Shown piece after piece: positions 1-13,885 of a DNA stretch of 64,000 nt. This DNA comes from Gammaproteobacteria bacterium (GTDB taxonomy: Bacteria > Pseudomonadota > Gammaproteobacteria > UBA4575). The stretch lies in assembly GCA_965221955.1 (NCBI GenBank), contig CBDCTA010000018.1:64001-128000 (forward strand). The letters run 5' to 3'. The notes below the pieces were generated by a model that made no database searches, was not told where the DNA came from, and saw nothing but the letters and a program-made list of their open reading frames with translations. Position numbers and translations under genes: made by a program. The stretch's first letter is position 1. Each line of letters begins with the position of its first letter.

Positions 1-1
1 A

Positions 2-760
2 GACCAGCTTAGCAAAAGAAAAATAAAACAACCCTTGTGCACTTGGAGTGAGTTATCTGAAATGTCTAATAGTAGCTATGTAGATGTGCAGTGTCACTCC
101 CTAACCCACTCTAGAGTATTCACAGCTTTACAATTGACTGATTTTATACACCCTAAATTTGATACATATTTTTACGGAAATATAAACATACCTATAGCTT
201 CAGACGATAATCCCATAAACCCAAATCGTCTTATAAAGTACGGGGATATCGTTTTTAAAAATGACTCAAGAATGAAGTGTACTAGACGTTTTAAAGAAAA
301 TGTCAATCTTTCTAAATATATGAGAGCGTATGTTAAAAAAAATGGTGATAAAGAATTTTTTAACAACCCCAAGTGGAGGAAAGAATTAAAAAATCATTAT
401 GAAAAATGGGACAAAAACAAGCTAGGAGAATTCGAAACCAAGGAAGAAATGATTTCTGCAGTTCACTATGAATTTATAACTTCAAAACAAATATTACAAG
501 AAAGACTTAATACACAAATTACACATTTCTGCTACCCGTGGTTTGAAAGTAGCACTCTTTCAGATCAAATTGCAGGAGAAACTGGATATGAACATTTGTA
601 TTATAGTATGAATATACCTTACGACTATGACAAAAGTATAAAGTCTCACATGAAACATACTCGGATCTCTGAAGAATACCTTCTCAGACTACCAGGCAAA
701 GGCAGAGTGTCATATTCTTCTGTATGGACAAAGAAAATCAAGAACTACATAGCACATTAG
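2..760 (+). CDS. Polysaccharide deacetylase (CE4/NodB-like), 5'-truncated by window edge
   Basis: Frame is open from base 2 (DQLSKRKIKQPLCTWSELSEM); LxWxELxEM, HSLTH metal motif and HFCYPW motif; long insertion between the motifs. Confidence 0.75.
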   Translation, partial: DQLSKRKIKQPLCTWSELSEMSNSSYVDVQCHSLTHSRVFTALQLTDFIHPKFDTYFYGNINIPIASDDNPINPNRLIKYGDIVFKNDSRMKCTRRFKENVNLSKYMRAYVKKNGDKEFFNNPKWRKELKNHYEKWDKNKLGEFETKEEMISAVHYEFITSKQILQERLNTQITHFCYPWFESSTLSDQIAGETGYEHLYYSMNIPYDYDKSIKSHMKHTRISEEYLLRLPGKGRVSYSSVWTKKIKNYIAH

Positions 761-1917
761 GCTAAACGTTTGTGATCTTCGAGCAACAAATCATAAACTT
801 TTTGAATTTGGCTAACGGTATGAGTTACCAAATAATTGCTCTTAAGCTCAATTAATGAATTACTACTTATTTTTTTAGCAAATTTTGCATTAGATAATAT
901 ACGGCATATTGCTTGAGCAATTTGCTCAGGCCTTTTCGGTGCAACTAATAAAGCAGTTCTTTCATGCTCTAATATTTCAGGAATTCCACCGACGCTAGTA
1001 GCAACAATTGGTGTTTGCATAGCCATTCCCTCTAATACTGATACCGGACAACCTTCAGAATGCGAACATATAGTTAGAACATCTAACAGAGATAATATTT
1101 CCAATACATTGTTGCAGTGACCTAGAAATATAATATTAGAAGATATATTTAATTTATGTGCCTTCTGCTCAAGCTCCTCACGCAAGTCTCCTTCACCGAC
1201 GATGACAAAACATACTTCAGGAATTTCTTGTAATACGATGTGTGCAGCATCTAAAAAATCAAAATGCCCTTTGATAGAATTTAATCTACCAACAATACCC
1301 ACTAATTTCTTTTCGACAGGCAAATCTAATGATTTAGAGATAGCTAGTTTAGTATCGGCATCGAACGGTTGAATACAATTTTCTGGGATTCCGTTATAGA
1401 TCACATCTGTTCGGTTCTTATTTAAATATCGTTCATTTACCATGAATTTTTTTACAGCTTTGGACACTGCTATTCCTTTAGCAGTTATAGATGAAAGAAT
1501 CCAATCAGCGATTCTTTGGTAAATAGGAATTTTACTATCAATCATATGCTCATGAACGATCACAGGTATGCGTAAAAATAAGCCCACTATTCTTCCAAAA
1601 TTTGTAGCGCCGTAACCATGACAATGTAATATTTTAATATTGTTACGACGTATAATACGCATCAAATCAAAAATAATTCTTATATCAAATTTATTTCGCC
1701 CTAAGTAATCTGCATTTATTTCATGCTCATCAAGCAATTTACTACCTTCATTTCGTCCGCGAAACACACACAAAAATAATTTATATTTAGTATTAGAAAA
1801 CTCCGGCCACCATGTCATTAAAACACGGGTTCCACCATGTATTGGCGAGCCCTTCATGCTAATTTTGTCGTATATATGTAATACGTGAATTTTTTCGCCT
1901 TGATTCATATCAGTCAT
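757..1917 (-). CDS. Glycosyltransferase family 4
   Basis: VGRLNSIKG, SHSEGCPVSVLEGMA (EX7E) and VGGIPEI motifs of GT-B/GT4. Confidence 0.9.
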   Translation of the reverse strand: MTDMNQGEKIHVLHIYDKISMKGSPIHGGTRVLMTWWPEFSNTKYKLFLCVFRGRNEGSKLLDEHEINADYLGRNKFDIRIIFDLMRIIRRNNIKILHCHGYGATNFGRIVGLFLRIPVIVHEHMIDSKIPIYQRIADWILSSITAKGIAVSKAVKKFMVNERYLNKNRTDVIYNGIPENCIQPFDADTKLAISKSLDLPVEKKLVGIVGRLNSIKGHFDFLDAAHIVLQEIPEVCFVIVGEGDLREELEQKAHKLNISSNIIFLGHCNNVLEILSLLDVLTICSHSEGCPVSVLEGMAMQTPIVATSVGGIPEILEHERTALLVAPKRPEQIAQAICRILSNAKFAKKISSNSLIELKSNYLVTHTVSQIQKVYDLLLEDHKRLA

Positions 1918-1986
1918 TTTATTAATGAGTACTTATAACCTGTAATGTTACAAGGAAATCAAGTTACTGAGAGAAAACTAAATTTG

Positions 1987-2514
1987 TTATCTTCTCGTAA
2001 AAATAACTTTCCCAGGATTGCCTTGCACAATCGAGTTTTCAGGAATCTTTCCAGAAACAACAGAATTTGGAGTTATAATGCTTCTGCTTCCTATCTCAGA
2101 ACCGTCTAAAATTACACACCCTGAGCTAATCCAAACATCATCACCAATCGTAATTCCTTTTGAAGTTTGCTGTTGCTTGCAGATTGGAATATCCAAGTGA
2201 TCATAACTATAGTTAATACTCACAATGGATGCATTAGGTCCGATCATACAATCATCACCGATTTTGATACCTTTTTTATGTGATGCGATAAAAGTATGTG
2301 CTGCGATAGCGACATTAGAACCTATTATTAATGGACCATCAGGCGCCTTGATTTTACAAAATGAGCTAATCACAGAACCTTTACCTATAGACAAGAAAGA
2401 AGTGAGTTCTACTTCTGATCGTGGACTAACCTTACATTTAAATTTAAGCCAACATTTTAACGTTACAAAAAACGGGGGCACAAAAAATCTGCGTAAAATT
2501 GTCGTAACATTCAT
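1987..2514 (-). CDS. Hexapeptide-repeat (left-handed beta-helix) acyltransferase
   Basis: Repeated IGxx hexapeptides (IGDDCMIGPN, IGDDVWISSGCVILDG) and C-terminal GNPGKVI. Confidence 0.88.
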   Translation of the reverse strand: MNVTTILRRFFVPPFFVTLKCWLKFKCKVSPRSEVELTSFLSIGKGSVISSFCKIKAPDGPLIIGSNVAIAAHTFIASHKKGIKIGDDCMIGPNASIVSINYSYDHLDIPICKQQQTSKGITIGDDVWISSGCVILDGSEIGSRSIITPNSVVSGKIPENSIVQGNPGKVIFTRR

Positions 2515-2519
2515 TAAAG

Positions 2520-2762
2520 TTAACTGCGTTCAGCAATAATACTTTTAATTTCATCCACGCTTAGCATGGACTGAATCTCTTTCATCGATAACTTTATTTT
2601 GTATTCATCCTCTATAGCTGTTACTAATTTAAGATGATTCATCGAATCCCATTGGTCAATATTATCTGGAGTATCTTGATCACTAATACTTCCTTCATCT
2701 ACACCAAATATCTCTGAAATTATTTGTTCAACCGATCTACTCATAGTTTCCCCAGCCTTCAT
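2520..2762 (-). CDS. Acyl/aminoacyl carrier protein (start may be ATG at 2744)
   Basis: Small acidic protein with WDSMNHL phosphopantetheine-attachment Ser motif. Confidence 0.85.
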   Translation of the reverse strand: MKAGETMSRSVEQIISEIFGVDEGSISDQDTPDNIDQWDSMNHLKLVTAIEDEYKIKLSMKEIQSMLSVDEIKSIIAERS

Positions 2763-3041
2763 TCATATTCATGTTGTATATAAATATTCTCATAAATTAC
2801 ATTCACAACCTTTTCATACAAATACTAAATCAACTTTAAATCCAAACCATAACTCACTGTAATATATTTATATTAAGTTTAGCCATAATAATATACTGGT
2901 AATTGTTATAAAAACTATCTTCCAAAACCTATTAAATAAACTTTTAATAAATTAATATTTTATTAGACCATGACCTAAAACAATGATATGAATCATATAC
3001 TAAAAGTAGATTGCTATTATGTGAATTAGTTAGACAGTTTC

Positions 3042-4019
3042 ATGAAAAAAGTTGTTGTTTTTGGAAACGGCAAAATAGCCGCCGAATGCTTAAAATTATT
3101 AACCGAAACTCAAGGAGTTGAGATCCGGTTAGTTTTATATAATCCAAACGATCCTTCACTTATAAGTCCAATTCGTACATTTTGTGAGAAGCACTCTATT
3201 CACTCAGAAGCTATTGGCTCAACTATTTTACCAAGCGTGACTGAACTTATTAGAGAAAAAAATCCGGATATTATTTTTAATATAAACAGTCACAACATAT
3301 TCGATAAAAAAATTCTTGATATACCTAAGATAGGCGCTATTAACTTTCACAATGGCCCTTTACCCAAATACAGAGGGCCAGGGTATGTAATTCCAAGTTG
3401 GGCAATATTCAATCAAGAGCATGAACATGGAGTAACTTGGCACTTTATGGATGAAGGAATTGATACGGGCGACATCATCGCACAAGATAAATTTTACCTA
3501 TCTAATAAAGAAACTGCATTAGAATTAAATTTCAAATGCATTACCGCAGGCATTAAGTTATTTGAAAAAAATATTGATGACATATTATCAGACAACTGTA
3601 ATCGAACTTCTCAAAAAGGACCTTCTTCTACATACTTTTCCTCTCAAATTCCTAATAATGGCTATATTGATTTTAATTGGCCATATCACAAGATTGATGC
3701 TTTCCTTAGAGCAACGGATTATAGGCCATATCAAAATCTATTTACGTATGCCAAAGTAAAATACAAAAACAATATATTTATAGTAAATACTGCATCGCTT
3801 CATAAACTAACCCATCACAACTATCAAAATGGTGAAATAATCAGCCTCTCTAGTAATTATTTACGTATCGCTGCAAATGATTCAATTTTAGACATAACAA
3901 AAGTTATGCATAAAGAAGACGATGAAATCTCTATTGAAAAACTTATTAAGGATTATCATATTTCCGAAGGAGATGTATTAAATTACAATTACTCAGATAA
4001 ATTCGAATTAGCATCATAG
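3042..4019 (+). CDS. N10-formyl-THF-dependent formyltransferase (Fmt/ArnA-like)
   Basis: INFHNGPLPKYRG and TWHFMDEGIDTGDII formyltransferase motifs, plus C-terminal Fmt-type domain. Confidence 0.88.
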   Translation: MKKVVVFGNGKIAAECLKLLTETQGVEIRLVLYNPNDPSLISPIRTFCEKHSIHSEAIGSTILPSVTELIREKNPDIIFNINSHNIFDKKILDIPKIGAINFHNGPLPKYRGPGYVIPSWAIFNQEHEHGVTWHFMDEGIDTGDIIAQDKFYLSNKETALELNFKCITAGIKLFEKNIDDILSDNCNRTSQKGPSSTYFSSQIPNNGYIDFNWPYHKIDAFLRATDYRPYQNLFTYAKVKYKNNIFIVNTASLHKLTHHNYQNGEIISLSSNYLRIAANDSILDITKVMHKEDDEISIEKLIKDYHISEGDVLNYNYSDKFELAS

Positions 4020-5564
4020 CTCCGCAAGTTTCTTCCGATCAATTTTGCCATTAAGATTCAATGGAAGTTTTGACATGAAATTAACATCTCTTGGCACCAT
4101 GTATGCAGGTAGTTTACCTGCCAAAAATTTTAACAATTGATCCGAATCAGCCTCCTCTCCCTCAATATACAATTTCAGATAAACTTTATCTTGATCATCT
4201 TTAGTTGGGACTACAGCCACGAGATTTACCTGAGTATACTCTCTTGTTAAGTGTTCAATCTCTTCCAACTCTATGCGGTGCCCGTCTATTTTTATTTGAA
4301 AATCTTTTCTACCACAATAAATATAATTTCCATGACTATTTATATAACATAAATCTCCAGTAAGATAAGCAATCTCATCAATCCCTAAAGTATTCGGTTT
4401 AATAAACACTTGCTTTGATTTTTCAGCATTATTCCAATAACTGTTCGTTACTTGATCACCCCATAAACATAATTCACCAATTTCTCCATTAGGAACATGA
4501 TTCAAATCATTATCTACAATTGCAGCATTAGTATTCTTAAACATTTTCCCAAACGTGAGCACTCCGTTTGATATATCTTCTGAAGAAATATTTATACTCC
4601 AGTCAAAGACGGTACATATGATAGTAGCTTCAGAAGGGCCATATGAATTATGTATAATAGAATTAGGCACGCATTTTGACCAACCTTCTACTAATCTGTG
4701 AATGAGTGATTCGCCCGCAAAAATACAATAACGCATCGCTTCTAGTCTTAACTCTGAAAAAAATCTCTCTATATATGACAAGACCGAAGGTACCATGAAC
4801 GCTACGGTAATATTATTCTCATCTAGTGTTTTTAAAATATTCAGATAAATAACACCTTTAGTTGGCACAATGTAACAGCATGCTCCTAAACAAAGTGGTG
4901 TAAAAAAAGAAACCACAGACATATCAAAACTTAATTGAAACATCTGCATAAACCGATCATTCTCATTAAAATCGTAATTGTTTTTATCTAACATTGTTAA
5001 CATGAAGCTATTAATATTTTCATGATAAATTGGAACACCTTTCGGCTTTCCCGTACTACCTGATGTGAACAATAAATAGAACATCTGATTCAAACTAACA
5101 TCGTCAGCGATGAGATCAAACTCACTCTCTTGCATCTCTTGTGTATAAAAAATGTTTAGCTCGTATGACGCATCACTATGTGCCTTAATCAAGGCATCAT
5201 GATACTTCGATGCAAGAACTAGCTTTAACTTAGTATCATTAATGATTGTTAAATTACGATCTGCAGGATTGTTTTCATTAATAGGCACATAGGCCGCACC
5301 CACTGCCAAAATAGCTATGATCGACGCATAGGTATACACATCATCCCCACTCAATACACCAATAATTTCTTCTTTATTGTAGCCACTTGCTACAATATTT
5401 TGCTTTATAGAATTAGCAATCCTAGTAAATTCTCTATAACTGTAATATTTCCCACGCGCATAAACCGCATGCTTGTCTGGACTTCTTTTACTATTCTCAA
5501 CTATTTTATTGATAATATAATTGGATGGCATTTTTGTATTACTTAAATCTATTATGAAGTGCAA
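4014..5564 (-). CDS. Stand-alone amino acid adenylation enzyme (DltA/NRPS A-domain-like); likely start ATG 5531
   Basis: A-domain core motifs YLLFTSGSTGKPKG, FDMSV, NSYGPSE, GELCLWG, YLTGDL, GRKDFQIKIDGHRIELEEIE, NGKIDR; no fused T or C domain. Confidence 0.9.
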   Translation of the reverse strand: MHFIIDLSNTKMPSNYIINKIVENSKRSPDKHAVYARGKYYSYREFTRIANSIKQNIVASGYNKEEIIGVLSGDDVYTYASIIAILAVGAAYVPINENNPADRNLTIINDTKLKLVLASKYHDALIKAHSDASYELNIFYTQEMQESEFDLIADDVSLNQMFYLLFTSGSTGKPKGVPIYHENINSFMLTMLDKNNYDFNENDRFMQMFQLSFDMSVVSFFTPLCLGACCYIVPTKGVIYLNILKTLDENNITVAFMVPSVLSYIERFFSELRLEAMRYCIFAGESLIHRLVEGWSKCVPNSIIHNSYGPSEATIICTVFDWSINISSEDISNGVLTFGKMFKNTNAAIVDNDLNHVPNGEIGELCLWGDQVTNSYWNNAEKSKQVFIKPNTLGIDEIAYLTGDLCYINSHGNYIYCGRKDFQIKIDGHRIELEEIEHLTREYTQVNLVAVVPTKDDQDKVYLKLYIEGEEADSDQLLKFLAGKLPAYMVPRDVNFMSKLPLNLNGKIDRKKLAEL

Positions 5565-5759
5565 TAATAGTGCATAAATACCTAAATTGTCTGTTTGTTC
5601 ATATTTATTATGAGATCATACGCACATAATAAATTTGTATCTTAATGCTGAGATTGAGACTTTTTGCAAAGCACTATTCATAAATTATAAGTATAGTATT
5701 TAATCACTTAGTAACACTGATATTTGCAGAAATCATCACTTCTACTGATAAATAAAAAA

Positions 5760-6758
5760 ATGGATAATTTTTGGGAAAATAGAAAAGTCTTGGTCACAGG
5801 TGCAGGAGGATTTACCGGCAGCAACTTATGCAACACTTTAGCAAGTAAAAATGCTGATGTTACTGCTTTTCTAAGAAAAAATGGTTCAAAACGCAATCTA
5901 GATTCAAAAATTAGAATTTATACAGGGGATCTCACTAATAGCTATGATTGCGATCAAGCTGCTCAGGGTATAGATACGATATTCAATATAGCTGCAATAT
6001 TCAGAAATGTTAAAGGGTCAGAACAACAGCTAAGAGATATCCACGTTCATGCTACTGAAAATCTAATGCGTGCTGCAAAAACAGCCGGCTGTCGTCGCTT
6101 CATTCACACCAGCACTATGGGCGTTCACGGACACGTTAAAAATGGCCCTGGTAACGAAGAAACAGAATTCTCACCTGGAGATGCTTACCAAGAGACAAAA
6201 GTAGAAGGTGAGTTATTAGCATTTAAATTAGCTAAAGAATTACCGATAGACCTATGTGTAATCAGACCGTGCGGAATCTATGGCCCAGGCGATACTCGTT
6301 TCCTTAAGTTAGTAAAGCCTATTAAAAAAGGACAATTCTTTATGATAGGAAGCGGTGAAACACACTATCATTTTGTCCATATAGATGATTTAGTAAATGG
6401 TTATTTATTAGCGGGCGAAAAAGAACATGCAATCGGTGAAGCATTTTTAATTGGCGGTGAAGAGGCACCTACTTTGAACGAACTCGCCAGAAAAATTGCT
6501 GAAATACAGAATGTGTCACCACCAAAATTTAAAATACCTGTATGGCCAATATATTACGCAGGCTGGTTGTGTGAAATTTTATTCGGCCTATTTAATATTG
6601 AACCCATTTTGCATCGCCGACGTGTAGCCTTTTTTACAAAAAATAGGCACTTCTCTATAAAAAAAGCACAAAATTTATTGGGCTACCAACCCGAGGTAAA
6701 TTTGGAAAAAGGGCTAAAGTCACTAATTGATTGGTATGAGAGTGAAGAACTAATTTAA
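5760..6758 (+). CDS. NAD-dependent epimerase/dehydratase (extended SDR)
   Basis: TGAGGFTG Rossmann motif, YQETK catalytic motif, RPCGIYGPGD; ATG 5760 preferred over the upstream TTG at 5724. Confidence 0.88.
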   Translation: MDNFWENRKVLVTGAGGFTGSNLCNTLASKNADVTAFLRKNGSKRNLDSKIRIYTGDLTNSYDCDQAAQGIDTIFNIAAIFRNVKGSEQQLRDIHVHATENLMRAAKTAGCRRFIHTSTMGVHGHVKNGPGNEETEFSPGDAYQETKVEGELLAFKLAKELPIDLCVIRPCGIYGPGDTRFLKLVKPIKKGQFFMIGSGETHYHFVHIDDLVNGYLLAGEKEHAIGEAFLIGGEEAPTLNELARKIAEIQNVSPPKFKIPVWPIYYAGWLCEILFGLFNIEPILHRRRVAFFTKNRHFSIKKAQNLLGYQPEVNLEKGLKSLIDWYESEELI

Positions 6759-6781: not shown

Positions 6782-8341
6782 CTAGGAAACTATATGCAAC
6801 TTTTTTGATATATTTTCTAACTGCACTTTCATTTGATTATCACTCCAGTTAAATTTATTAGCCATCTCTTTTGCAATTTTCTCGAGATTTTGTCTACCTA
6901 AATAACCTCGTTTAGCTAAATTATTTCTTCGCAAAACGTAATCTTCTAGATTAAATACCATCTCTGCTTCAATAGTATAAGAAATATGCTTATACATATT
7001 CTTCAAATAAATTGTGTTTATTTTATCTTGACTAATTATTGGCTGAAGACATAGATCATCAATATTTGAAAATATACTCTTATATTCTTGCAAAGAGTAA
7101 TTAGATATAGGTATTTTTTTAGCCTTATAATTAATACGATCAACGACCATATCAACTACTCGTGATGCTGTACTACGTGCAGTAGTATATTTTACTCCAA
7201 TTACCGAAATTAAATTATCAATGTTATCTACTCTAGCATGGTCAATTATATTAGTACGATGAGAACGTGAAGATCTATCATTAGCTGATGATTGTTCAGC
7301 TGGTGTAAAGCCTGAATATATATAGTTAACTTTATCCTGGCTTAAGTTTATTGAAGGATAGGCTTCGTTAATTTCATCCATAAACCCAGGTAGTTCAGAT
7401 GACACATCAGTATCCATTTCCTTGCTAATATCATGTTCAAAATGCGCTGTGCCAATCACAGTCTTATTTAGCCATGGGGTAAAAAAATACACTCGCTTAC
7501 TTTCACCGATCACCGCATCTGAGGCACGATTACTTTTAACACCAAAAGCAAAATCTTTCCTTATACTATCAATTACAATATTAAAGTTTTTCGTTAGCGG
7601 CTGAAAATTGTATTCATCAGTTCCAATACTAGATTTTAATAGCCTATAAGCCCATGGACCGGCAGCATTAATGATTTGCGAAGCTTTGATATCAAAATGA
7701 CGCCCTGTGACCATATCTTTGACATGTACACCTATAGATTTTTTGGAGGCAATTAATAGTTCATCAGCACGCAAATAATTTGCTAGACACAATCCCTGAC
7801 GATGAGCATCTTTTAACAGCTCTATATGTAATCGATCTGCATCAACTATTTGGCCATCGTACCAAACCGCACCACCTTTAATATTTTCACCATTTATTTC
7901 AGGTAATAACTGTTGGTAGTCGGCTTTAGAAATCAAATATCCATTAGGATAAGCTCTCTTTTTATTTTGCATGGCTGCAACTAAATTATGCATATTGATG
8001 GCCGCTCCTAGAGCTAGTGGCCCTCTAGATCCATATCCATAAGCAGGTAATATAAATTTAAGCGGTTTAATAAGCTTATTTGATATTTGTACCCACCTCT
8101 CACGTTCTTGAACTGACTCAAATACTCGTTTCAAATTGAGATGTTGGAAATAGCGAATTCCACCATGGATAATTTTTAAAGAATTGTGTGAAGTGCCGCT
8201 ACCAAAGTCATTAGCATCTATAAGACAAACTTTAAGTCCACGTAATACTGCATCTCGCGCAACAGAAATTCCATATATGCCCGCACCTATAACCAAAAGA
8301 TCAAATTGGTCATGCTCCAACTGATCAAGATTACGTTGCAT
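6782..8341 (-). CDS. FAD-dependent glycerol-3-phosphate dehydrogenase/oxidase-like protein
   Basis: IGAGIYG FAD motif, DFGSGTSHNSLKIIHGGIRY, INAAGPW, GVKYTTAR motifs typical of the GlpD/GlpA family. Confidence 0.82.
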   Translation of the reverse strand: MQRNLDQLEHDQFDLLVIGAGIYGISVARDAVLRGLKVCLIDANDFGSGTSHNSLKIIHGGIRYFQHLNLKRVFESVQERERWVQISNKLIKPLKFILPAYGYGSRGPLALGAAINMHNLVAAMQNKKRAYPNGYLISKADYQQLLPEINGENIKGGAVWYDGQIVDADRLHIELLKDAHRQGLCLANYLRADELLIASKKSIGVHVKDMVTGRHFDIKASQIINAAGPWAYRLLKSSIGTDEYNFQPLTKNFNIVIDSIRKDFAFGVKSNRASDAVIGESKRVYFFTPWLNKTVIGTAHFEHDISKEMDTDVSSELPGFMDEINEAYPSINLSQDKVNYIYSGFTPAEQSSANDRSSRSHRTNIIDHARVDNIDNLISVIGVKYTTARSTASRVVDMVVDRINYKAKKIPISNYSLQEYKSIFSNIDDLCLQPIISQDKINTIYLKNMYKHISYTIEAEMVFNLEDYVLRRNNLAKRGYLGRQNLEKIAKEMANKFNWSDNQMKVQLENISKKLHIVS

Positions 8342-8379: not shown

Positions 8380-9141
8380 TTATTTTCGACAAAATGCCAT
8401 TAAGTGATGCCCGGTTCTACTAATTAAAGATTTTGGAAGCATATTATACGAGTCAACAAAAATTTTATTATATAAAAGTGCTTTTAAACCGCTGTGTACT
8501 TTTGTTGCTACCGGAAACCTTTCAGGAACTATTTCTACTGTAGAAAACAGTTTCAACATATTTTCAAACTCATTTATAGAGTACATGTAAAAAACTGGGG
8601 CATCTAAGTGATCAATTTTAACTTTCATTAATTTATGCATGAAATTTAACCAAGATTTACGATTTACAGTCATCAGTATCGCTTCACCACCAGGTTTAAG
8701 CACTCGGTTAATCTCATTAATCATTTTTTGTGGGTTAGGAGTAAAATGCAAAACTGTATGACAATAAACCATATCAAAACTATTATCAGGAAATTCCATT
8801 TTCTCCCCATCCATAACTTGGAAACTACCTTGCAATTTACGCATCGCAAAATTATTTTTTGCCAAATCGATGGAGTGAGCTGCAAGATCAATACCCGTTA
8901 CCTCCGCACCACCTTTTGCAAAACGTGTAAGATCATTTCCAGTACCACAGCCTACATCAAGAATTTTTTTGTCTTTATAACCAGAAAAGTTAACTACTTT
9001 GGGTAAATAATGGAGTTTTTCGAATCTGTATTCTTCAATTTCTTGAAAAAACTCTAATGTCCCTGCCGGGCTTTTAGCCACTTTCCAATCATGCACATGA
9101 TTGTTCCAGAACTCACGTACTTCCTCTTTAACCATGACCAC
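8380..9141 (-). CDS. Class I SAM-dependent methyltransferase
   Basis: ILDVGCGTG, FPDNSFDMV and RVLKPGG motifs. Confidence 0.9.
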   Translation of the reverse strand: MVMVKEEVREFWNNHVHDWKVAKSPAGTLEFFQEIEEYRFEKLHYLPKVVNFSGYKDKKILDVGCGTGNDLTRFAKGGAEVTGIDLAAHSIDLAKNNFAMRKLQGSFQVMDGEKMEFPDNSFDMVYCHTVLHFTPNPQKMINEINRVLKPGGEAILMTVNRKSWLNFMHKLMKVKIDHLDAPVFYMYSINEFENMLKLFSTVEIVPERFPVATKVHSGLKALLYNKIFVDSYNMLPKSLISRTGHHLMAFCRK

Positions 9142-9156
9142 TTGAATATATTAAAT

Positions 9157-10344
9157 TTATGAATGTTCTATCTGATCTATCGCAGCATAAAGCTTGCTCA
9201 CTTTATGCATGTAGATTTCATCAGAATATTTTATTTCTGCAAGCTGTTGAGCTGCTCGTGCCTTTTCATCACCCAACGCTGGATTCTTAATTAACTCCGT
9301 CATACCTTGATTTAAACCCTCTTTATTTGGTGGCACTAATATAGCAACCTTTTTATTTAACACCTGAGTATGAGTAAGTATATTGGTAGCAACAATAGGT
9401 TTTCCTGAGCGCAAATATCCATAAATCTTTAAAGGCGTATTCGTCCCTGTACATCTTGGTGAAACAATAATATCTGCCGATTGAATATAAGATGGTATTT
9501 CTGATGGGTGCACAGTGCCAGTGAACAAAATTGATTGATCAATACCTAAGCTTATAGCTAACTTTGTATAATTTTGAATTTGTTCATCACGACCGCCAAC
9601 TAAAATCAAAAAGGCGTGAGGATTCTTATCTAAGGTGCCATTGAATGCATTAAATAATATATCGATACCTTGATAAGCTTCAAATGTACCTGTATACAAA
9701 ATAATTTTTCTATCTTGTAAAGAGTAAAGCTCTCTTATATTTTTAACATTATTTGAAAAAACTTTACTATCATCAGCAGTATTTTCTATCAGCTCATGCG
9801 GTGTATTTAAATTAAAACTCTCGACTAAATTAGCCAGCTCAGGACATATAGTAATCACTGCGTCACAACTATTAAGTACTTTGCTTTCAAAATATTCAAA
9901 GAATTTTTTTAAAAAAATGAAATTGAATGCACCAAAGTTTTCCAACTGCTGTGGAAGACTACTATGCATATCATAAACATGCAGCATGTTATATTTTTTT
10001 GCAAAATACATAGCAAAGAATGCAGCTTCTTCATGAGAATGAATCACATCATATTTGTTTTTTTTGAGTAACTTTCTAGCAGTAAAATATAGACTAATAT
10101 CTAAAAATATTTTTTTCACAGATGGGCCTATTTTTACATCATTGATGATTCCGTAATTACTAGATCTTATAATTTTTAGGCCATCAAATTCGATATCCTC
10201 ACCAAATGGGTAAGTTACCATATCTACTTTAAATCCCATTTCACATAATGCTCGCACACGATGTAATACGCTGAAAGGAGTTCCACGCGCCCTGAAGTAA
10301 GGCTGTGGAGTTAGCATTAGGACTCGATTATTATTAGCAGGCAT
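9157..10344 (-). CDS. Glycosyltransferase family 4
   Basis: YTGTFEAYQGID, NTPLKIYGYLRSGKPIVAT GT-B C-terminal motifs. Confidence 0.85.
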   Translation of the reverse strand: MPANNNRVLMLTPQPYFRARGTPFSVLHRVRALCEMGFKVDMVTYPFGEDIEFDGLKIIRSSNYGIINDVKIGPSVKKIFLDISLYFTARKLLKKNKYDVIHSHEEAAFFAMYFAKKYNMLHVYDMHSSLPQQLENFGAFNFIFLKKFFEYFESKVLNSCDAVITICPELANLVESFNLNTPHELIENTADDSKVFSNNVKNIRELYSLQDRKIILYTGTFEAYQGIDILFNAFNGTLDKNPHAFLILVGGRDEQIQNYTKLAISLGIDQSILFTGTVHPSEIPSYIQSADIIVSPRCTGTNTPLKIYGYLRSGKPIVATNILTHTQVLNKKVAILVPPNKEGLNQGMTELIKNPALGDEKARAAQQLAEIKYSDEIYMHKVSKLYAAIDQIEHS

Positions 10345-10654: not shown

Positions 10655-11881
10655 ATGCCTTATTCACCTTTAGATAACTTTGAAGTTCGTGATCATAACC
10701 TTCTTATATCAGGCCTAAACATACGAGATTTAATAAAAAGAAATGTTCAAATTCCGGGTTTTATTTATTCTAAAAATATTATCGACAATAAGATTAAGTT
10801 GCTCAGAGACACTCTTCCATCTTCAATTAAAATTCATTATTCAGTTAAAGCCAACCCATTTGCAGATCTAATTTCGCACGTTAAACATCGTGTTGATGGC
10901 TTGGAGGTATCATCATTGGAAGAGATGCAGACCGCACTTGCAACTGGAATTGACAGTAAAGATATTTGTTTAACTGGCCCTGGGAAGAGTTATGAAGAGT
11001 TAGAAATTGCTATAAAAAACAATATCATCATCAGCGCTGAATCTAGTCTTGAATTATACAGACTAGACGAAATAGGCATGGAAAGAATGCTTAAACCTTC
11101 TGTTTTGATACGGATAAATCCTGATTTCACTCAAAAACGTGCAGGAATGAAAATGGCAAGTGGATCAAGTCAATTTGGAATTGACGCCGAAAAAATCCCA
11201 GAACTTTTAAAATGGATTAATGGATCTTGCATTAACCTACACGGCTTTCATGTTTATAGTGGATCTCAAATCCTTGATGCTGAAGCTATTAATTATTCAC
11301 AAAGGAAAACTTTTGAACTCGCATTAAATCTAGCTACATTGTGCAAAGAACCTATTAAAACTATCAATTTAGGCGGCGGGTTTGGCATTCCGTATTTTTC
11401 AAAACACACTTCTTTAGATATAAAATCTGTGGCAAGAAATATTGAATCCTTAATTCCCACGCTCAACACTGAAAACTTCAGGCAGCCAATCAATCTAATT
11501 ATAGAATTAGGGCGATTTATTGTGGGCGAGTCAGGTGTATATATATGCAAAGTAATTGATAAAAAAGAATCCAGAGGGAAAACTTATTTAGTAACGAATG
11601 GCGGTATGCATCACCAATTGGCAGCCTCGGGCAACCTAGGGCAAAAAAATAGAAAGAATTTTCCTATATATATTGCAAATAAAATTGACTCAAATGTGAG
11701 GGAAACAGTGAATGTAGTTGGAAAATTATGTACACCATTAGATATTCTTGGAGAAAATGTAGAATTGAGCCAAGCTGAAGTTGGGGACTATGTCGCAATC
11801 ATGCAATCTGGAGCATATGGTTATTCGGCAAGCCCAATAAATTTTTTAAGCCAACCGAAAGCATCTGAAATACTTGTCTAA
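10655..11881 (+). CDS. PLP-dependent decarboxylase (LysA/fold III), exosortase A system-associated type
   Basis: HYSVKANP PLP-lysine, HVYSGSQ, NLGGGFG, ELGRF, LCTPLD, GAYGYSASP; ASGNLGQKNRKNFP segment and context match the XrtA-associated subfamily. Confidence 0.85.
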   Translation: MPYSPLDNFEVRDHNLLISGLNIRDLIKRNVQIPGFIYSKNIIDNKIKLLRDTLPSSIKIHYSVKANPFADLISHVKHRVDGLEVSSLEEMQTALATGIDSKDICLTGPGKSYEELEIAIKNNIIISAESSLELYRLDEIGMERMLKPSVLIRINPDFTQKRAGMKMASGSSQFGIDAEKIPELLKWINGSCINLHGFHVYSGSQILDAEAINYSQRKTFELALNLATLCKEPIKTINLGGGFGIPYFSKHTSLDIKSVARNIESLIPTLNTENFRQPINLIIELGRFIVGESGVYICKVIDKKESRGKTYLVTNGGMHHQLAASGNLGQKNRKNFPIYIANKIDSNVRETVNVVGKLCTPLDILGENVELSQAEVGDYVAIMQSGAYGYSASPINFLSQPKASEILV

Positions 11882-11908: not shown

Positions 11909-13885
11909 TTATAAATTTACTTGGACACCTTTAGGTATTTTATAAATATGGATAGCATCCTCGATCGAATTAAACTGATGATATTCTACTAGCATATCAT
12001 CAATTTTTTTGTATATAGGCGGAAGCGTTATTTTTTTACCAGGACCATAAATTACAACCCATCTCTCAAAATTTGAATCTGCAATCTTTGTTTTAAATGA
12101 ATCTTCTGTATAGAGCAAATCATACCCGCTCCAGATATCTCGCTTCCCGCCACATGCTGAACGACTTGTAAATGAATCGTGCGTGAGCGGCAAGTAAAAG
12201 TAAGCTCCTTGATGGTCTTTTATGTAGTAATCGATAACTGGAACAGCAGTAACTAATATACTGTTGGCCTGTCTACGCGAATTAATATATTCAGCAGCTG
12301 ATTGGAAATCTATGCGAGGGTAATAATGACGTGTACGAGGCCCATCGTAATCAAGTCGAAAATTAACCCTTTCTGAATCAATTTCTATTGCGTCTTTCGC
12401 AGAAAAATCATCAGAAATTAAAAAGAATAAACTTACGAGTATGATAAGGCTTGCGTTTTTTGACCACATCGAAAAACCAGCAGGTACCATACGAACGATT
12501 ACAATGGCACATACCGACAAAATAAGTGGGTATAGGTAATACGTATACCTTGAATCTACGTAAAATGTAGACATCATTGCAGTAATCATTACTAAAATTA
12601 ATATTATCCCTAGCAACCTATTAAACTTAACATCATTATCTCTCTTTGCATTGAATACTAATAAAAACGCTAATACAGCAGCAATGGATGCGAGAATTGT
12701 TTGATACGGCATGGCCGAATACCATGGTTTAAATATTCGAAAATAAACATCTGGATAACTAAACATTGAATTAATAACTTCTTTTATAGCCTGCACCAAT
12801 CCAGAGTTGCTTGACTGTATAAAAATATAAAAACCTAAGCCGACAAACCAAAAAATAATTGCCAAGCAATAAATAATAAAAGCACGACTATTTTCTTTAA
12901 ACCAAGCGAACATTGTGTTTTTACTTAACAGGTAAACCGCAACTAAACTTCCTAGGAAAAGAGCAAGCTGATTTGAGATAACAGCAATAATCGCGATTAT
13001 TAACCCAATCGTTGCTACTGGCTCCGCACCTTTAACTCTGTAAATTGAATATGCGATTAAACCTATTCCCCATACCCCAAGCACTAACGCTAATATTGGA
13101 AATAGAATAAAGTCCTCTGATAGAGCCAATATTCGCTCGGGGAAAAGCACAGGAAAGGTTGTCCCATTGGCTGCAGTACTTACGATATATTCAGGAGGTA
13201 AAAATTGACCAACACCTAAACGCCGAAACGGAATAATATGGGTTACAGTTATTAGTACTGCGATACCCAACCACGCAATGTAGTCATATATTTTAATAGA
13301 TTTTTTATTCAGAATTGGATTGAGTACCGCAAGTCCAAAACAAAATATTGCACCCGCATAAACAAACACAGACAAAAAAGCCAAGCCATAACACAACCAA
13401 GTATTAACTAATTCGCTTGGTTTATTTGCTTGAAGTACTAACCAAACCTGCCAAATTACAATAGTTTGAAATAAAGCATACATTCTCCCAAATCGTGAAA
13501 ACTCAATCTCCCATAACGAGAAGGCCAAAAAGAATATCCCAATTACTGCTGCAGACCATCCTCCGATTTTTCGACAAATCAAAAATATAGCTGGAAATGC
13601 CGCAATATTAGCAATAAGTGGAATTATTCGAATAGCAAGTTCAGGATCATTCAAATAAAGTCGAAGTGGTACTGTAAGATATTGTTGAAAAATCCCGCGA
13701 ATATAATAACCACCACATTCAAAGCGAGGTAAGTTTGTCCGAATAATATTTTCAATCGATGAAATAAAATAGTACTCATCAACAGCAACTGGCCATTTAC
13801 CTAGGCCTTTTAACCTTATAATTATCCCCAGTATTGAAATAACTACAGCGAGTAATATATATGGGTTTTTTGTGTTTGTTTTCAT
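11909..13885 (-). CDS. Polytopic membrane protein, GT-C fold glycosyltransferase-like (ArnT/PMT-like)
   Basis: Many hydrophobic helices, acidic DE pair after TM1 (VAVDEYY), RMYAL motif, soluble C-terminal domain. Confidence 0.6.
   Translation of the reverse strand: MKTNTKNPYILLAVVISILGIIIRLKGLGKWPVAVDEYYFISSIENIIRTNLPRFECGGYYIRGIFQQYLTVPLRLYLNDPELAIRIIPLIANIAAFPAIFLICRKIGGWSAAVIGIFFLAFSLWEIEFSRFGRMYALFQTIVIWQVWLVLQANKPSELVNTWLCYGLAFLSVFVYAGAIFCFGLAVLNPILNKKSIKIYDYIAWLGIAVLITVTHIIPFRRLGVGQFLPPEYIVSTAANGTTFPVLFPERILALSEDFILFPILALVLGVWGIGLIAYSIYRVKGAEPVATIGLIIAIIAVISNQLALFLGSLVAVYLLSKNTMFAWFKENSRAFIIYCLAIIFWFVGLGFYIFIQSSNSGLVQAIKEVINSMFSYPDVYFRIFKPWYSAMPYQTILASIAAVLAFLLVFNAKRDNDVKFNRLLGIILILVMITAMMSTFYVDSRYTYYLYPLILSVCAIVIVRMVPAGFSMWSKNASLIILVSLFFLISDDFSAKDAIEIDSERVNFRLDYDGPRTRHYYPRIDFQSAAEYINSRRQANSILVTAVPVIDYYIKDHQGAYFYLPLTHDSFTSRSACGGKRDIWSGYDLLYTEDSFKTKIADSNFERWVVIYGPGKKITLPPIYKKIDDMLVEYHQFNSIEDAIHIYKIPKGVQVNL

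What the first reader, a model, noticed from the sequence alone, without database searches (positions are those of the whole stretch)
757..5564. Candidate NRPS-like carrier-dependent module for (N-formyl)aminoacyl decoration of an exopolysaccharide
Seen: a stand-alone A-domain enzyme (4014-5564, DltA-like FDMSV), a formyltransferase whose stop overlaps it (3042-4019), and an operon of carrier protein, LbH acyltransferase and GT4 (2762 to 757). No condensation domain, thioesterase or DltB-type MBOAT is in the window. Known: DltA/DltC load an amino acid on a carrier for polymer decoration; LbH enzymes LpxA/LpxD use ACP-bound acyl donors; formyltransferase domains in some NRPSs act on carrier-bound amino acids; N-formyl-aminoacyl sugar substituents occur in some O-polysaccharides. 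Inference: the A domain loads an amino acid on the carrier, it is N-formylated, the LbH protein transfers it to a nucleotide sugar or lipid-linked repeat, and GT4 incorporates it. This would be a cytoplasmic, MBOAT-free Dlt alternative acting on an XrtA-type EPS.
Basis: partly seen in the sequence, partly recalled or inferred. Interest (0 to 1): 0.8.

Follow-up and report, generated by a model that had tools for sequence, protein, structure and literature searches.

The report
Carrier-protein acyl-decoration cassette in EPS locus
An exopolysaccharide gene cluster carries a conserved, uncharacterised cassette in which a Dlt/Alm-like amino-acid-activating enzyme and a small carrier protein are paired with a hexapeptide-repeat acyltransferase instead of the usual membrane acyltransferase, which suggests a new variant of a known way of putting amino-acid-derived groups on surface sugars.

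Summary
All five genes are real, at the stated coordinates. The locus is an exosortase/PEP-CTERM EPS locus. The genome has no MBOAT and no condensation domain.

- The adenylation (A) enzyme belongs to a family of stand-alone Dlt/Alm-like enzymes. Of 73 metagenome loci, 48 have a carrier gene nearby and 25 have an MBOAT.
- The LbH-linked enzymes form a sub-clade without MBOAT.
- Carrier and LbH genes are adjacent or overlapping in every LbH-family locus, including five found by searching with the LbH.
- The formyltransferase (FT) abuts the 3' end of the A gene in seven loci. Two of them read A→FT→carrier on one strand.

Points against:
- The LbH is not LpxA/D-like and has no conserved catalytic His.
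- The FT's nearest solved relatives are ArnA and sugar N-formyltransferases.
- The GT4 at 757-1917 is not conserved with the module.
- Three of five genomes with carrier-LbH-flavoenzyme lack the A family.

Verdict: a new variant of a known kind. The chemistry is untested.

The parts
1..760 (+). 3' part of a 397-aa polysaccharide deacetylase-family gene. It starts 433 nt before the window. It neighbours the cassette but is not conserved with it.
   Evidence: Pfam Polysacc_deac_1, 5.2e-13, on the full ORF L002:17567-18760. No counterpart in the other loci.
757..1917 (-). GT4 glycosyltransferase, last gene of the carrier-LbH-GT4 run. It is not a conserved member of the module.
   Evidence: Pfam Glycos_transf_1, 3.5e-37. 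Absent from syntenic G013. Its cluster occurs in 5 of 76 loci.
1987..2514 (-). 175-aa left-handed beta-helix (LbH) acyltransferase. It is the proposed transferase for the carrier-bound group.
   Evidence: Hexapep, 1.3e-17. The best NCBIfam match is WbbJ at 69.7 bits, against a cut-off of 243. The family is 58-82% identical across the 120 listed cluster representatives. It has no invariant His. A carrier gene lies immediately upstream in all LbH-family loci.
2520..2762 (-). 80-aa phosphopantetheine carrier protein.
   Evidence: PP-binding, 23.3 bits against 20.8. Trp38, Ser40 and Glu51 are invariant in 36 carriers. It is one of only 3 PP-binding matches in the genome.
2763..3041 (.). 279-nt divergent intergenic region between the carrier operon and the FT. 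It presumably holds both promoters.
   Evidence: ORF layout. No promoter scan was run.
3042..4019 (+). 325-aa stand-alone formyltransferase with N- and C-terminal domains.
   Evidence: Pfam PF00551 and PF02911. Asn101, His103 and Asp141 are invariant. The nearest solved relative is the ArnA FT domain at 1.1e-21; the LgrA F domain scores about 7e-7. It abuts the 3' end of the A gene in 7 loci.
4014..5564 (-). 516-aa stand-alone adenylation enzyme of the Dlt/Alm type.
   Evidence: AMP-binding, 1.8e-63. TIGR01733 scores 313.7 against 317.4; DltA TIGR01734 scores 282.3 against 559.85. Asp214 ('FDMSV') and Lys507 are kept in 28 of 28 relatives. The inferred specificity code is DMVFIASIIK.
5724..6758 (+). 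344-aa extended SDR of the sugar epimerase/reductase type. It is a conserved cassette member.
   Evidence: Pfam Epimerase, 4.9e-41. The best NCBIfam match is HpnA, 163.9 against 367.65. Its cluster is found in 8 loci.
6782..8341 (-). 519-aa FAD oxidoreductase like glycerol-3-phosphate dehydrogenase/oxidase. It is a core partner of carrier and LbH.
   Evidence: Pfam DAO and DAO_C. PDB 3da1, 1.7e-48. It lies next to carrier-LbH in L169-L173. It is also present in OWN, L085, L003, L089, L093 and L111.
8380..9141 (-). 253-aa SAM methyltransferase, conserved in part of the cassette.
   Evidence: Methyltransf_11, 9.3e-28. 84% identical in L085 and 73% in L111.
9157..10344 (-). 395-aa GT4 glycosyltransferase, the conserved one.
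   Evidence: Pfam. Orthologues in L085 (76%), L111 (39%) and L089 (32%). Same cluster in L003.
10655..11881 (+). PLP-dependent decarboxylase of the exosortase-A-associated family.
   Evidence: TIGR03099, 509.1 bits against a cut-off of 478.45. With the cassette only in this genus.
11909..13885 (-). 658-aa polytopic membrane protein of no known family. It could be the periplasmic-side transferase or a polymerase.
   Evidence: No Pfam or NCBIfam match. About 12 hydrophobic segments in a crude Kyte-Doolittle scan. 32% identical in G013.

Best explanation
The genes belong to a mobile cassette of about 12 genes inside an exosortase/PEP-CTERM exopolysaccharide locus. The cassette decorates a sugar with an amino-acid-derived acyl group through a carrier protein.

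Proposed steps:
1. The stand-alone A enzyme adenylates a small, probably aliphatic, alpha-amino acid and loads it on the phosphopantetheine arm of the 80-aa carrier. This step is inferred from family, motifs and gene adjacency.
2. In the loci that have it, the formyltransferase most likely N-formylates the carrier-bound aminoacyl group. This is inferred from gene order only.
3. The 175-aa LbH protein, whose gene is coupled to the carrier gene, takes the acyl group from the carrier and puts it on a sugar on the cytoplasmic side. It does the job that an MBOAT or a GNAT-like protein does in sister branches of the same A family. This is inferred.
4. The acceptor is probably a polyprenyl-phosphate-linked or nucleotide sugar made or handled by the co-conserved pair of ArnC/GtrB-like GT2, the SDR and the GlpD-like flavoenzyme. 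It is not the product of the GT4 at 757-1917. This is a weak inference.

No step has been shown biochemically.
For: Anatomy and motifs.

The A family:
- Asp235 and Lys517 equivalents are kept in 28 of 28 relatives.
- The commonest code in the family is DLMLLCVIFK (17 of 65 rows). It shares 6 of 10 positions with a true DltA (TIGR01734, 691 bits), whose code is DLMTLCTVAK.
- Solved relatives include LgrA module 2, AlmE (4oxi, 2.7e-46) and DltA.

Co-occurrence in loci found by searching with the A enzyme:
- A carrier gene lies within 8 kb in 48 of 73 metagenome loci, and in 23 of the 27 loci with at least 3 kb on both sides.
- An acyltransferase candidate (GNAT-like, GNAT, MBOAT or LbH) is present in 56 of 73, and in 26 of those 27.
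- MBOAT is present in 25 of 73.
- None of the 8 loci with this LbH family (OWN, L085, L003, L088, L089, L093, L097, L111) has an MBOAT within 8 kb. The own genome has none at all.
- All 9 LbH-linked A enzymes fall in one clade of 15 rows with SH-aLRT 99, in a quick tree.

Carrier and LbH genes overlap or lie within about 25 nt of each other in OWN, L085, L089 and L097. The same holds in 5 of 5 Acidobacteriota loci found by searching with the LbH.

FT:
- It lies within 173 nt of the 3' end of the A gene in OWN, L085, L093, L108, L113, L121 and L130. L121 and L130 read A→FT→carrier on one strand.
- 5 of the 7 closest FT homologues are on contigs of the same length as contigs of top A homologues. 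This is suggestive only.
- No DegT-type sugar aminotransferase lies in the locus; the two good matches are on other contigs.

The cassette is syntenic in a congener. The two GT2 paralogues each have orthologues beside LbH and A in L003, L088, L089, L111 and L085.
Against: - The LbH resembles acetyl-CoA-dependent MAT/GAT/WbbJ enzymes (3ect, 1.7e-13), not LpxA or LpxD. I know of no LbH of that type that uses a carrier-bound donor (recall).
- In 3 of 5 Acidobacteriota genomes that hold carrier-LbH-flavoenzyme, no A-family gene was found at E<=1e-40. None lies within 10 kb in L169 or L171. The carrier can therefore be loaded in another way, or with something other than an amino acid.
- The FT's closest solved relatives act on nucleotide sugars (ArnA, 1.1e-21; GDP-perosamine and dTDP-Qui3N formyltransferases). 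The LgrA F domain is far weaker.
- The FT is present in only 3 of the 8 LbH-family loci.
- The window's own specificity code (DMVFIASIIK) differs from the family norm at 8 of 10 positions, so the amino acid is unknown.
- The code positions were placed by motif from recalled GrsA numbering, not by alignment to 1AMU.
- A role for the flavoenzyme is unexplained. If it deaminates the aminoacyl group, formylation would make no sense.
- All loci found by searching with the A enzyme are biased towards containing A, and several are near-duplicates.
Confidence: 0.5

Rival explanations
1. Arn-like reading. The FT formylates the free amine of a nucleotide- or undecaprenyl-phosphate-linked amino sugar, as the ArnA FT domain does for UDP-Ara4N. 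The ArnC-like GT2 handle the formylated sugar and a deacetylase-family enzyme later removes the group. A, carrier and LbH would then be a separate decoration that happens to sit alongside.
For: - The closest solved relatives are the ArnA FT domain (1.1e-21) and sugar N-formyltransferases.
- The best NCBIfam rows are 'formyltransferase' PRK06988 and ArnA.
- Two ArnC-like GT2 (NF007986, 195.9 and 102.6 bits, both below the cut-off) lie 8-10 kb upstream, and a deacetylase-family gene abuts the cassette.
- The GT2 pair is conserved with the cassette.
Against: - The GT2 pair is kept in loci without an FT (L003, L088, L089, L111).
- The deacetylase is not conserved.
- There is no sugar aminotransferase in the locus.
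- The FT always abuts the A gene and twice sits between A and carrier on one strand.
- All FT matches are below the curated cut-offs.
Confidence: 0.22
2. Tetronate-like reading. The amino acid is only a precursor. On the carrier it is converted by the flavoenzyme (amine oxidation to a 2-oxoacyl) and the SDR (reduction to a 2-hydroxyacyl). The LbH then transfers a hydroxyacyl group (such as lactyl, glyceryl or dihydroxybutyryl). This would be comparable to the ACP/ligase/LbH set proposed for tetronate on the V. cholerae O1 antigen.
For: - The flavoenzyme is the most faithful partner of carrier and LbH: 5 of 5 loci found by searching with the LbH, and 6 of the 8 LbH-family loci found with the A enzyme.
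- The SDR cluster is in 8 loci.
- VC0248-VC0252 are assigned to tetronate synthesis and acylation of perosamine (passages of PMC3441752). Their ACP/ligase/LbH make-up is recalled, not checked here.
Against: - The flavoenzyme is homologous to GlpD/GlpO (3da1, 1.7e-48), not to amino-acid oxidases.
- The SDR looks like sugar-nucleotide epimerases.
- An FT in the same cassette needs a free amine.
- No sequence comparison with the Vibrio proteins was made.
Confidence: 0.15
3. The LbH is an ordinary acetyl-CoA O-acetyltransferase of the EPS. The A enzyme and carrier serve something else, for example the little-understood ligase-decarboxylase pair that NCBIfam associates with exosortase A systems.
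For: - The LbH resembles MAT/GAT/WbbJ enzymes.
- The TIGR03099 decarboxylase is present over its cut-off, while its usual partner ligase TIGR03098 is not over the cut-off anywhere in the genome. The A enzyme is the second-best match to that model, at 187.7 bits.
Against: - Carrier and LbH genes are coupled in every LbH-family locus across at least two phyla, also where no decarboxylase is present.
- The decarboxylase accompanies the cassette only in this genus.
- The His that aligns with the MAT/GAT catalytic His falls on a variable column.
Confidence: 0.1

Closest known systems
AlmEFG of Vibrio cholerae El Tor (glycine addition to lipid A)
   Same: A stand-alone DltA-like ligase loads an amino acid on a small phosphopantetheinyl carrier, and a non-MBOAT acyltransferase moves it to a glycolipid (passages of PMC4278540). 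AlmE (PDB 4oxi) is a clear homologue of the A enzyme, at 2.7e-46.
   Different: The Alm transferase AlmG is not an LbH protein (its LPLAT-type fold is recalled). The target there is lipid A. Alm has no formyltransferase, flavoenzyme, SDR or GT2 partners. Here the context is an EPS locus.
DltABCD D-alanylation of teichoic acids
   Same: The logic of A enzyme plus carrier is the same. The family's commonest specificity code shares 6 of 10 positions with a true DltA. 25 of 73 related loci carry an MBOAT like DltB.
   Different: There is no MBOAT in this genome. The A enzyme scores 282 against a DltA cut-off of 560. The transferase candidate is a soluble LbH protein, so transfer would be cytoplasmic.
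Initiation module of linear gramicidin synthetase LgrA (F-A-PCP)
   Same: A formyltransferase, an adenylation unit and a carrier act on one amino acid. LgrA is the best solved match of the A enzyme (2.2e-107 overall) and a weak match of the FT (about 7e-7). The gene order A→FT→carrier in L121 and L130 mimics it with separate proteins.
   Different: Here the parts are separate proteins with no condensation domain. The FT is closer to ArnA than to the LgrA F domain.
Tetronate acylation genes of the V. cholerae O1 antigen (VC0248-VC0252, wbeK-O)
   Same: It is a polysaccharide locus with genes assigned to making an acyl group and putting it on a sugar amine (passages of PMC3441752). By recall the set includes an ACP, an AMP-ligase and an LbH acetyltransferase-like protein.
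   Different: The ligase there is not known to be amino-acid specific. I made no sequence comparison here. The mechanism is also unproven there.
LpxA/LpxD, the acyl-ACP-dependent LbH acyltransferases of lipid A synthesis
   Same: The fold is the same, and they give a precedent for an LbH enzyme using a carrier-bound donor. The VIA structural comparison places LpxA and LpxD among many tied LbH matches (Z 10-12).
   Different: The sequence scores are far below their cut-offs (about 36-39 bits against 207-242). The LbH is half their size. The donor would be aminoacyl rather than hydroxyacyl.

Membership tests
DltA (TIGR01734, D-alanine--D-alanyl carrier protein ligase) | Score over the curated equivalog cut-off (559.85 bits) | tested here: not met
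   282.3 bits. A true DltA scored 691 bits in the same model.
Dlt system | DltB-type MBOAT in the operon or genome | tested here: not met
   0 PF03062 matches in the 96.6%-complete genome. The controls were positive.
Dlt system | DltD (SGNH-like) partner | not tested
   I made no search for PF04914.
Amino-acid adenylation domain (TIGR01733 / NRPS A domain) | Curated cut-off of 317.4 bits, plus an Asp that binds the alpha-amino group and a catalytic Lys | tested here: inconclusive
   313.7 bits, just under the cut-off. Asp214 in 'FDMSV' and Lys507 are invariant in 28 of 28 relatives. Position numbering rests on recalled GrsA motifs.
Non-ribosomal peptide synthetase | Condensation domain and/or thioesterase acting with the A-carrier pair | tested here: not met
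   0 PF00668 matches in the genome. The only PF00975 match over the cut-off is on another contig.
AlmEFG-type aminoacylation | AlmE-like ligase and small carrier | tested here: met
   4oxi at 2.7e-46. The carrier has PP-binding over the cut-off and an invariant Ser.
AlmEFG-type aminoacylation | AlmG-type (lipid A acyltransferase-like) transferase | not tested
   No such family appeared among the annotated neighbours, but I made no dedicated search.
MAT/GAT/WbbJ-type LbH O-acetyltransferases | Hexapeptide repeats, family cut-off and conserved catalytic His | tested here: not met
   The repeats are present. WbbJ scores 69.7 against 243 and MAT 49.7 against 314. The His of 3ect aligns to a column that varies (S/K/G/R/Q/N), and no His is invariant in 24 family members.
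LpxA/LpxD acyl-ACP LbH acyltransferases | Family cut-offs | tested here: not met
   LpxD 35.9-39.1 bits against 207-242, and LpxA 30.9 against 226.
LpxA/LpxD acyl-ACP LbH acyltransferases | Use of a carrier-bound acyl donor | not testable with these tools
   Only gene coupling speaks for it.
ArnA formyltransferase domain / sugar N-formyltransferases / Fmt | Asn-His-Asp catalytic triad | tested here: met
   Asn101, His103 and Asp141 are invariant in 36 sequences.
ArnA formyltransferase domain / sugar N-formyltransferases / Fmt | Curated cut-offs of the named equivalogs | tested here: not met
   PRK06988 137.2 against 316, ArnA 130.8 against 777, Fmt 98.6 against 201.5, and dTDP-sugar FT 47.9 against 238.
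NRPS formylation (F) domain | Fusion to the N-terminus of an A-PCP module | tested here: not met
   The FT is a separate gene on the opposite strand. Its similarity to the LgrA F domain is about 7e-7. I did not search for longer, fused forms.
Exosortase A (XrtA/PEP-CTERM) EPS locus | Exosortase plus XrtA-system export, chain-length and priming-GT families | tested here: met
   Over their cut-offs: TIGR02602 152.4 against 105.55, TIGR03007 318.2 against 278.85, TIGR03027 190 against 180, and TIGR03013 554.6 against 393.35. The XrtA-specific model itself is under its cut-off (172.8 against 208).
Exosortase-A-associated ligase/decarboxylase pair (TIGR03098/TIGR03099) | Both models over their cut-offs | tested here: not met
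   TIGR03099 scores 509.1 against 478.45, so it is met. For TIGR03098 the best genome match is 228.7 and the A enzyme scores 187.7-192.4, against 592.35.

The most novel reading that the evidence does not exclude
Carrier + 175-aa LbH + GlpD-like flavoenzyme is the core of a widespread, undescribed decoration system found in Acidobacteriota, Gammaproteobacteria-labelled MAGs and this lineage. In it, a non-lipid-A LbH enzyme takes its acyl donor from a dedicated carrier protein and installs an (N-formyl)aminoacyl or amino-acid-derived group on a polyprenyl-phosphate-linked sugar. That would be a third route, besides MBOAT (Dlt) and LPLAT (Alm), for aminoacylating surface glycans. It would also be a stand-alone counterpart of the NRPS F-A-PCP initiation module working on a polysaccharide.
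Probability: 0.3. Interest if true: 0.75.

Novelty: new variant of a known kind. Interest (0 to 1): 0.55.

Why it matters
Amino-acid esters and amides on surface glycans change charge, phage and antimicrobial-peptide sensitivity, and biofilm properties. Only two enzymatic routes from a carrier protein are characterised: Dlt, through an MBOAT, and Alm, through an LpxL-like enzyme.

A carrier-dependent LbH transferase would add a third, soluble route. It would extend carrier-dependent LbH chemistry beyond lipid A. It could also explain N-acyl or N-formyl-aminoacyl substituents that are known chemically in O-polysaccharides but have no assigned genes.

The LbH family is very tightly conserved (58-82% identity across the 120 listed cluster representatives), and the cassette recurs across phyla. 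That makes it a tractable target for biochemistry.

If the rival readings hold, the locus is an ordinary mixture of acetylation and Arn-like sugar formylation, and of modest interest.

Tried and rejected
1. The search for related loci in genome contigs with the full-length A alignment. The patterns chosen were generic A-domain core motifs. 80 loci came back, but only L003 reached 40% identity; the others were at most 36%, mostly ordinary NRPS modules. I then aligned only residues 195-300 from three loci and used that for the metagenome scan, which gave 73 family loci.

2. Kin searches with the A enzyme. It was found in 1 of 14 other genomes of the genus. It was found in 0 of 400 other sampled genomes of the phylum at E<=1e-90. 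The cassette is rare and patchy in its own lineage.

3. Complex prediction with FT plus carrier, each given as a 36-row alignment. The result was no support (score 0.00, controls not run). This is not evidence for or against binding.

4. Structure of the LbH (pLDDT 74). Foldseek against the PDB gave only meaningless beta-solenoid rows with E>0.1. VIA-align gave many tied LbH matches (Z 10-13; N-acetyltransferases, LpxA, MAT, carbonic anhydrases) that do not separate the sub-families.

5. Atlas search of a 317-aa ORF beside the carrier in L169. Recognition was low and no family emerged, so it may not be a gene.

6. I considered and dropped the idea that the SDR is a thioester reductase. TIGR01746 scores 43.5 against 213, and the best matches are sugar epimerases.

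7. I considered a hopanoid-type (HpnA/HpnL-like) reading of the SDR, the PF03706 protein and the GT2. It rests only on weak sub-cut-off matches and I did not pursue it.

8. Literature.
- Searches found no paper describing an A-carrier-LbH module in a polysaccharide locus. The terms were: adenylation domain / carrier protein / hexapeptide / polysaccharide / formyltransferase; exosortase / PEP-CTERM / acyl carrier protein / decarboxylase / ligase; DltA / acyl carrier protein / exopolysaccharide / acetyltransferase / alanylation / Gram-negative; and amino acid adenylation / acyl carrier protein / capsular polysaccharide / O-antigen / aminoacyl / gene cluster.
- The library lacks most subscription journals, so this is not proof of absence.
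- PMC1569441 (Haft 2006) holds none of the words decarboxylase, acyl carrier, ligase or acyltransferase in its main text. Its supplements were not seen.
- Papers seen as passages only: PMC4278540, PMC3441752 and PMC2907700.
- All other literature statements are recalled. These are: the AlmG fold, Cys269 of DltA, LgrA module 2 being Gly-specific, FlmF1/FlmF2/NaxD, LbH N-acetyltransferases without a catalytic base, and the make-up of WbeK-O.

9. The tree is the quick IQ-TREE (SH-aLRT only). The careful search did not finish within the time limit. A-gene ORFs shorter than 430 aa (11 of 76 loci) were left out of the tree and of the code table.

I could therefore not make a full neighbourhood census of the 308 LbH relatives.

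Full report
**1. What is there.**
The window is G000:C18:64001-128000, from a 2.69-Mb assembly that is 96.6% complete and about 33% G+C.

ORFs match the finding:
- GT4, 757-1917(-)
- LbH, 1987-2514(-)
- carrier, 2520-2762(-)
- FT, 3042-4019(+)
- A enzyme, 4014-5564(-)

Pfam confirms every domain. The carrier reaches the PP-binding cut-off (23.3 against 20.8 bits), and its WDS serine is invariant among 36 related carriers. The FT has both formyltransferase domains, with Asn101, His103 and Asp141 invariant in 36 relatives. The A enzyme carries 'FDMSV' and the terminal Lys.

FT and A converge, and their stop codons overlap at 4014-4019. Carrier, LbH and GT4 are co-directional with gaps of 5 and 69 nt. 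So there are at least four transcription units, not one operon plus a coupled pair.

**2. Setting.**
The rest of the window is an exosortase/PEP-CTERM EPS locus. It has:
- an exosortase fused to EpsI (TIGR02602 over its cut-off; the XrtA-specific model is below its own);
- the XrtA-system chain-length determinant, export protein and priming glycosyltransferase, all over their cut-offs;
- a tyrosine kinase and many GT4 and GT2 genes.

Immediately right of the finding lie an SDR, a GlpD/GlpO-like FAD oxidoreductase, a methyltransferase and a GT4. Then comes the exosortase-A-associated PLP decarboxylase TIGR03099, over its cut-off.

The 18 kb left of the window edge holds a deacetylase-family gene, a glutaminyl cyclase, a FemAB-like GNAT, a Wzx flippase and two tandem ArnC/GtrB-like GT2.

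Across the genome:
- no MBOAT and no condensation domain;
- one PF01648 phosphopantetheinyl transferase;
- three PP-binding matches;
- one weak thioesterase match, on another contig;
- two real DegT-type sugar aminotransferases, both on other contigs.

**3. Which families.**

*A enzyme.*
- It scores just under the amino-acid-adenylation model (313.7 against 317.4) and well under DltA (282 against 560).
- Its solved relatives are LgrA (best with module 2), tyrocidine and gramicidin A domains, DltA and AlmE (4oxi, 2.7e-46).
- Its database relatives are at most 50% identical. They are stand-alone proteins of about 505 aa from many phyla.

*LbH.*
- It is closest to WbbJ/MAT/GAT-type O-acetyltransferases, not to LpxA or LpxD.
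- It belongs to a very tight family of 175-176 aa. The 120 listed cluster representatives are 57-82% identical.
- No histidine is invariant in that family. The column aligned to the His of the MAT-like structure 3ect is variable.

*FT.*
- It is closest to the ArnA formyltransferase domain and to sugar N-formyltransferases, then to Fmt. The LgrA F domain is much weaker.
- It passes none of the curated cut-offs.

**4. Conservation.**
Among kin the cassette is rare:
- The A enzyme was found in 1 of 14 other genomes of the genus.
- It was found in 0 of 400 other sampled genomes of the phylum.

In that one congener the order LbH-carrier-FT-A-SDR-FADox-MT-GT4-decarboxylase is kept. A and FT are about 50% identical, the carrier 59%, and the flanking genes 63-84%. 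The GT4 at 757-1917 is absent there.

A first broad scan was swamped by NRPS modules. A scan with a family-specific stretch gave 73 metagenome loci. I called ORFs, clustered them and named the clusters with Pfam and the Atlas.

Counts over the 73 loci, within 8 kb of the A gene:

| Feature | Of 73 loci | Of the 27 loci with ≥3 kb on both sides |
|---|---|---|
| Carrier gene | 48 | 23 |
| GNAT-like 224-aa protein | 39 | 18 |
| MBOAT | 25 | 12 |
| GNAT | 7 | 3 |
| LbH | 6 | 4 |
| Any of these four acyltransferase types | 56 | 26 |

The general theme of the family is therefore 'A + carrier + an acyltransferase of variable fold'. Most members are Dlt-like with an MBOAT.

The LbH of L137 is an outlier (27% identity). 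Setting it aside leaves eight loci with this LbH family: OWN, L085, L003, L088, L089, L093, L097 and L111. None has an MBOAT within 8 kb. In a quick tree, all nine LbH-linked A enzymes sit in one 15-row clade with SH-aLRT 99, nested among MBOAT-linked ones.

**5.
In the LbH loci the following recur.
- The GlpD-like flavoenzyme (OWN, L085, L003, L089, L093, L111, plus the truncated L086, L092 and L108).
- The SDR (8 loci).
- The GT4 at 9157-10344 and the methyltransferase.
- Both ArnC-like GT2 paralogues, each with its own orthologue at 40-80% identity. GT2a orthologues are in L003, L088, L089 and L111. GT2b orthologues are in L003, L085, L089 and L111.
- Some loci add a PF03706 flippase-like membrane protein, a DUF5060 glycoside-hydrolase-like protein, an asparagine synthase or a sulfotransferase.

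I then searched from the LbH side in 401 Acidobacteriota genomes and found it in 5.
- In all five fetched loci the carrier gene lies just upstream of the LbH, and the flavoenzyme is within about 0.6 kb.
- A 530-aa GDSL protein follows the flavoenzyme.
- No A-family gene lies within 10 kb in L169 or L171.
- Three of the five genomes have no A-family gene at E<=1e-40.

The tightest core is therefore carrier + LbH + flavoenzyme. The A enzyme is a frequent partner but not an obligatory one.

**6. The formyltransferase.**
- An FT-cluster gene lies within 8 kb of the A gene in 6 of the 73 metagenome loci, plus OWN and L085.
- In seven of these eight it lies within 173 nt of the 3' end of the A gene.
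- It is convergent with A in OWN, L085, L093 and L108.
- In L121 and L130 the order is A→FT→carrier on one strand, with small gaps.
- L121 and L113 (L130 was too short for the tree) lie in a different A-enzyme clade from the LbH group, so the FT-A link arose or was kept in more than one branch.
- The closest FT homologues (45-58% identity) sit on contigs whose lengths equal those of contigs bearing top A and LbH homologues: 570337, 81375, 18240, 4888 and 3252. This is suggestive only.
- The GT2 pair is kept whether or not an FT is present.

I read this as favouring an FT that works with the A-carrier pair. The homology to sugar formyltransferases keeps the Arn-like rival alive.

**7. Which amino acid.**
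I placed the ten specificity positions by conserved motifs, using GrsA numbering from memory rather than an alignment to 1AMU. The resulting codes:

| Enzyme | Code |
|---|---|
| Window | DMVFIASIIK |
| G013 | DFMPICAVYK |
| Family's commonest (17 of 65 rows; seen with MBOAT, LbH and FT alike) | DLMLLCVIFK |
| True DltA (TIGR01734, 691 bits) | DLMTLCTVAK |
| LgrA module 2 (read by eye from the alignment; Gly-specific by recall) | DIANLCIIYK |

The family norm therefore looks like a small amino acid (Gly or Ala type). The window's enzyme differs from that norm at 8 of 10 positions, including Ala for the Cys in 'FCGE'. Its substrate cannot be named.

**8. Mechanism and odds.**
Best reading (0.5):
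1. The A enzyme loads a small amino acid on the carrier.
2. The FT, where present, formylates it on the carrier.
3. The LbH transfers it to a sugar in the cytoplasm.
4. The acceptor is probably tied to the GT2 pair, the SDR and the flavoenzyme.

Only homology, motifs and gene order support this.

Rivals:
- Arn-like sugar formylation (0.22).
- On-carrier conversion to a hydroxyacyl group, as proposed for tetronate (0.15).
- An ordinary acetyltransferase, with A and carrier serving the exosortase-associated decarboxylase (0.1).

**9. Comparison and novelty.**
AlmEFG already shows carrier-dependent, MBOAT-free aminoacylation of a glycolipid. Dlt is the parent system. LgrA shows formylation of a carrier-bound amino acid. 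LpxA and LpxD show LbH enzymes using carrier-bound donors.

What would be new is the combination: an LbH transferase of a distinct, His-less family working with a Dlt/Alm-type A-carrier pair, a stand-alone FT and a GlpD-like flavoenzyme, in EPS loci of several phyla. Four literature searches found no description of it.

I rate it a new variant of a known kind, with interest 0.55.

Noticed in passing
upstream of the window: L002 8006-8947 and 8981-9931 (G000:C18 54006-55931): Two tandem ArnC/GtrB-like GT2 paralogues. Each has its own orthologue (40-80% identity) beside the LbH, carrier and A genes: GT2a in L003, L088, L089 and L111; GT2b in L003, L085, L089 and L111. This suggests a polyprenyl-phosphate-sugar step belongs to the cassette.
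   Followed up: partly
window 6782-8341 (-); L169-L173: A GlpD/GlpO-like FAD oxidoreductase is the most faithful neighbour of carrier and LbH. This holds even in Acidobacteriota genomes that lack the A enzyme, where a 530-aa GDSL/SGNH protein follows it. Its role is unexplained.
   Followed up: partly
window 10655-11881 (+): The exosortase-A-associated PLP decarboxylase (TIGR03099) is over its cut-off. Its usual partner ligase, TIGR03098, is not over its cut-off anywhere in the genome. The best match (228.7 bits) is on contig C29, and the Dlt-like A enzyme is second at 187.7 bits.
   Followed up: partly
window 11909-13885 (-): A 658-aa protein with about 12 hydrophobic segments and no Pfam or NCBIfam match, conserved at 32% in the congener. 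It may be a GT-C-type transferase or a polymerase.
   Followed up: no
metagenome loci, e.g. L103 11039-11713, L099 3381-4055: In 39 of 73 related loci a 224-aa protein with no Pfam match follows the A gene directly. The Atlas places it at 0.99 with a cluster in which 47% of members carry GNAT PF00583. Typical order is A, GNAT-like, carrier, MBOAT: an undescribed Dlt-like operon type.
   Followed up: partly
L002 15548-16639 (+) (G000:C18 61548-62639): A FemAB-like GNAT (Acetyltransf_6, 1.4e-21) lies 3 kb left of the cassette. Enzymes of this kind use aminoacyl-tRNA, so the locus may have a second, tRNA-dependent aminoacylation step.
   Followed up: no
L085 5906-6886 (-); L089 6792-7715; L086; L092: A PF03706 (LPG_synthase_TM, flippase-like) membrane protein and a DUF5060/GH5-like protein recur in LbH-type loci. 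The window's genome has a DUF5060 protein at L002 11623-13203.
   Followed up: no
window 34657-36003 (-): A second adenylate-forming enzyme (PaaK / coenzyme F390 synthetase-like) lies inside the same EPS locus, next to an O-antigen-ligase-like gene.
   Followed up: no
protein P0065; L112, L114, L117: Some relatives of the A enzyme are fused or extended. P0065 is a 712-aa A-GNAT fusion. The A-gene ORFs in three MBOAT loci are 897-1006 aa. Such fusions argue that the acyltransferase works directly with the A enzyme.
   Followed up: no
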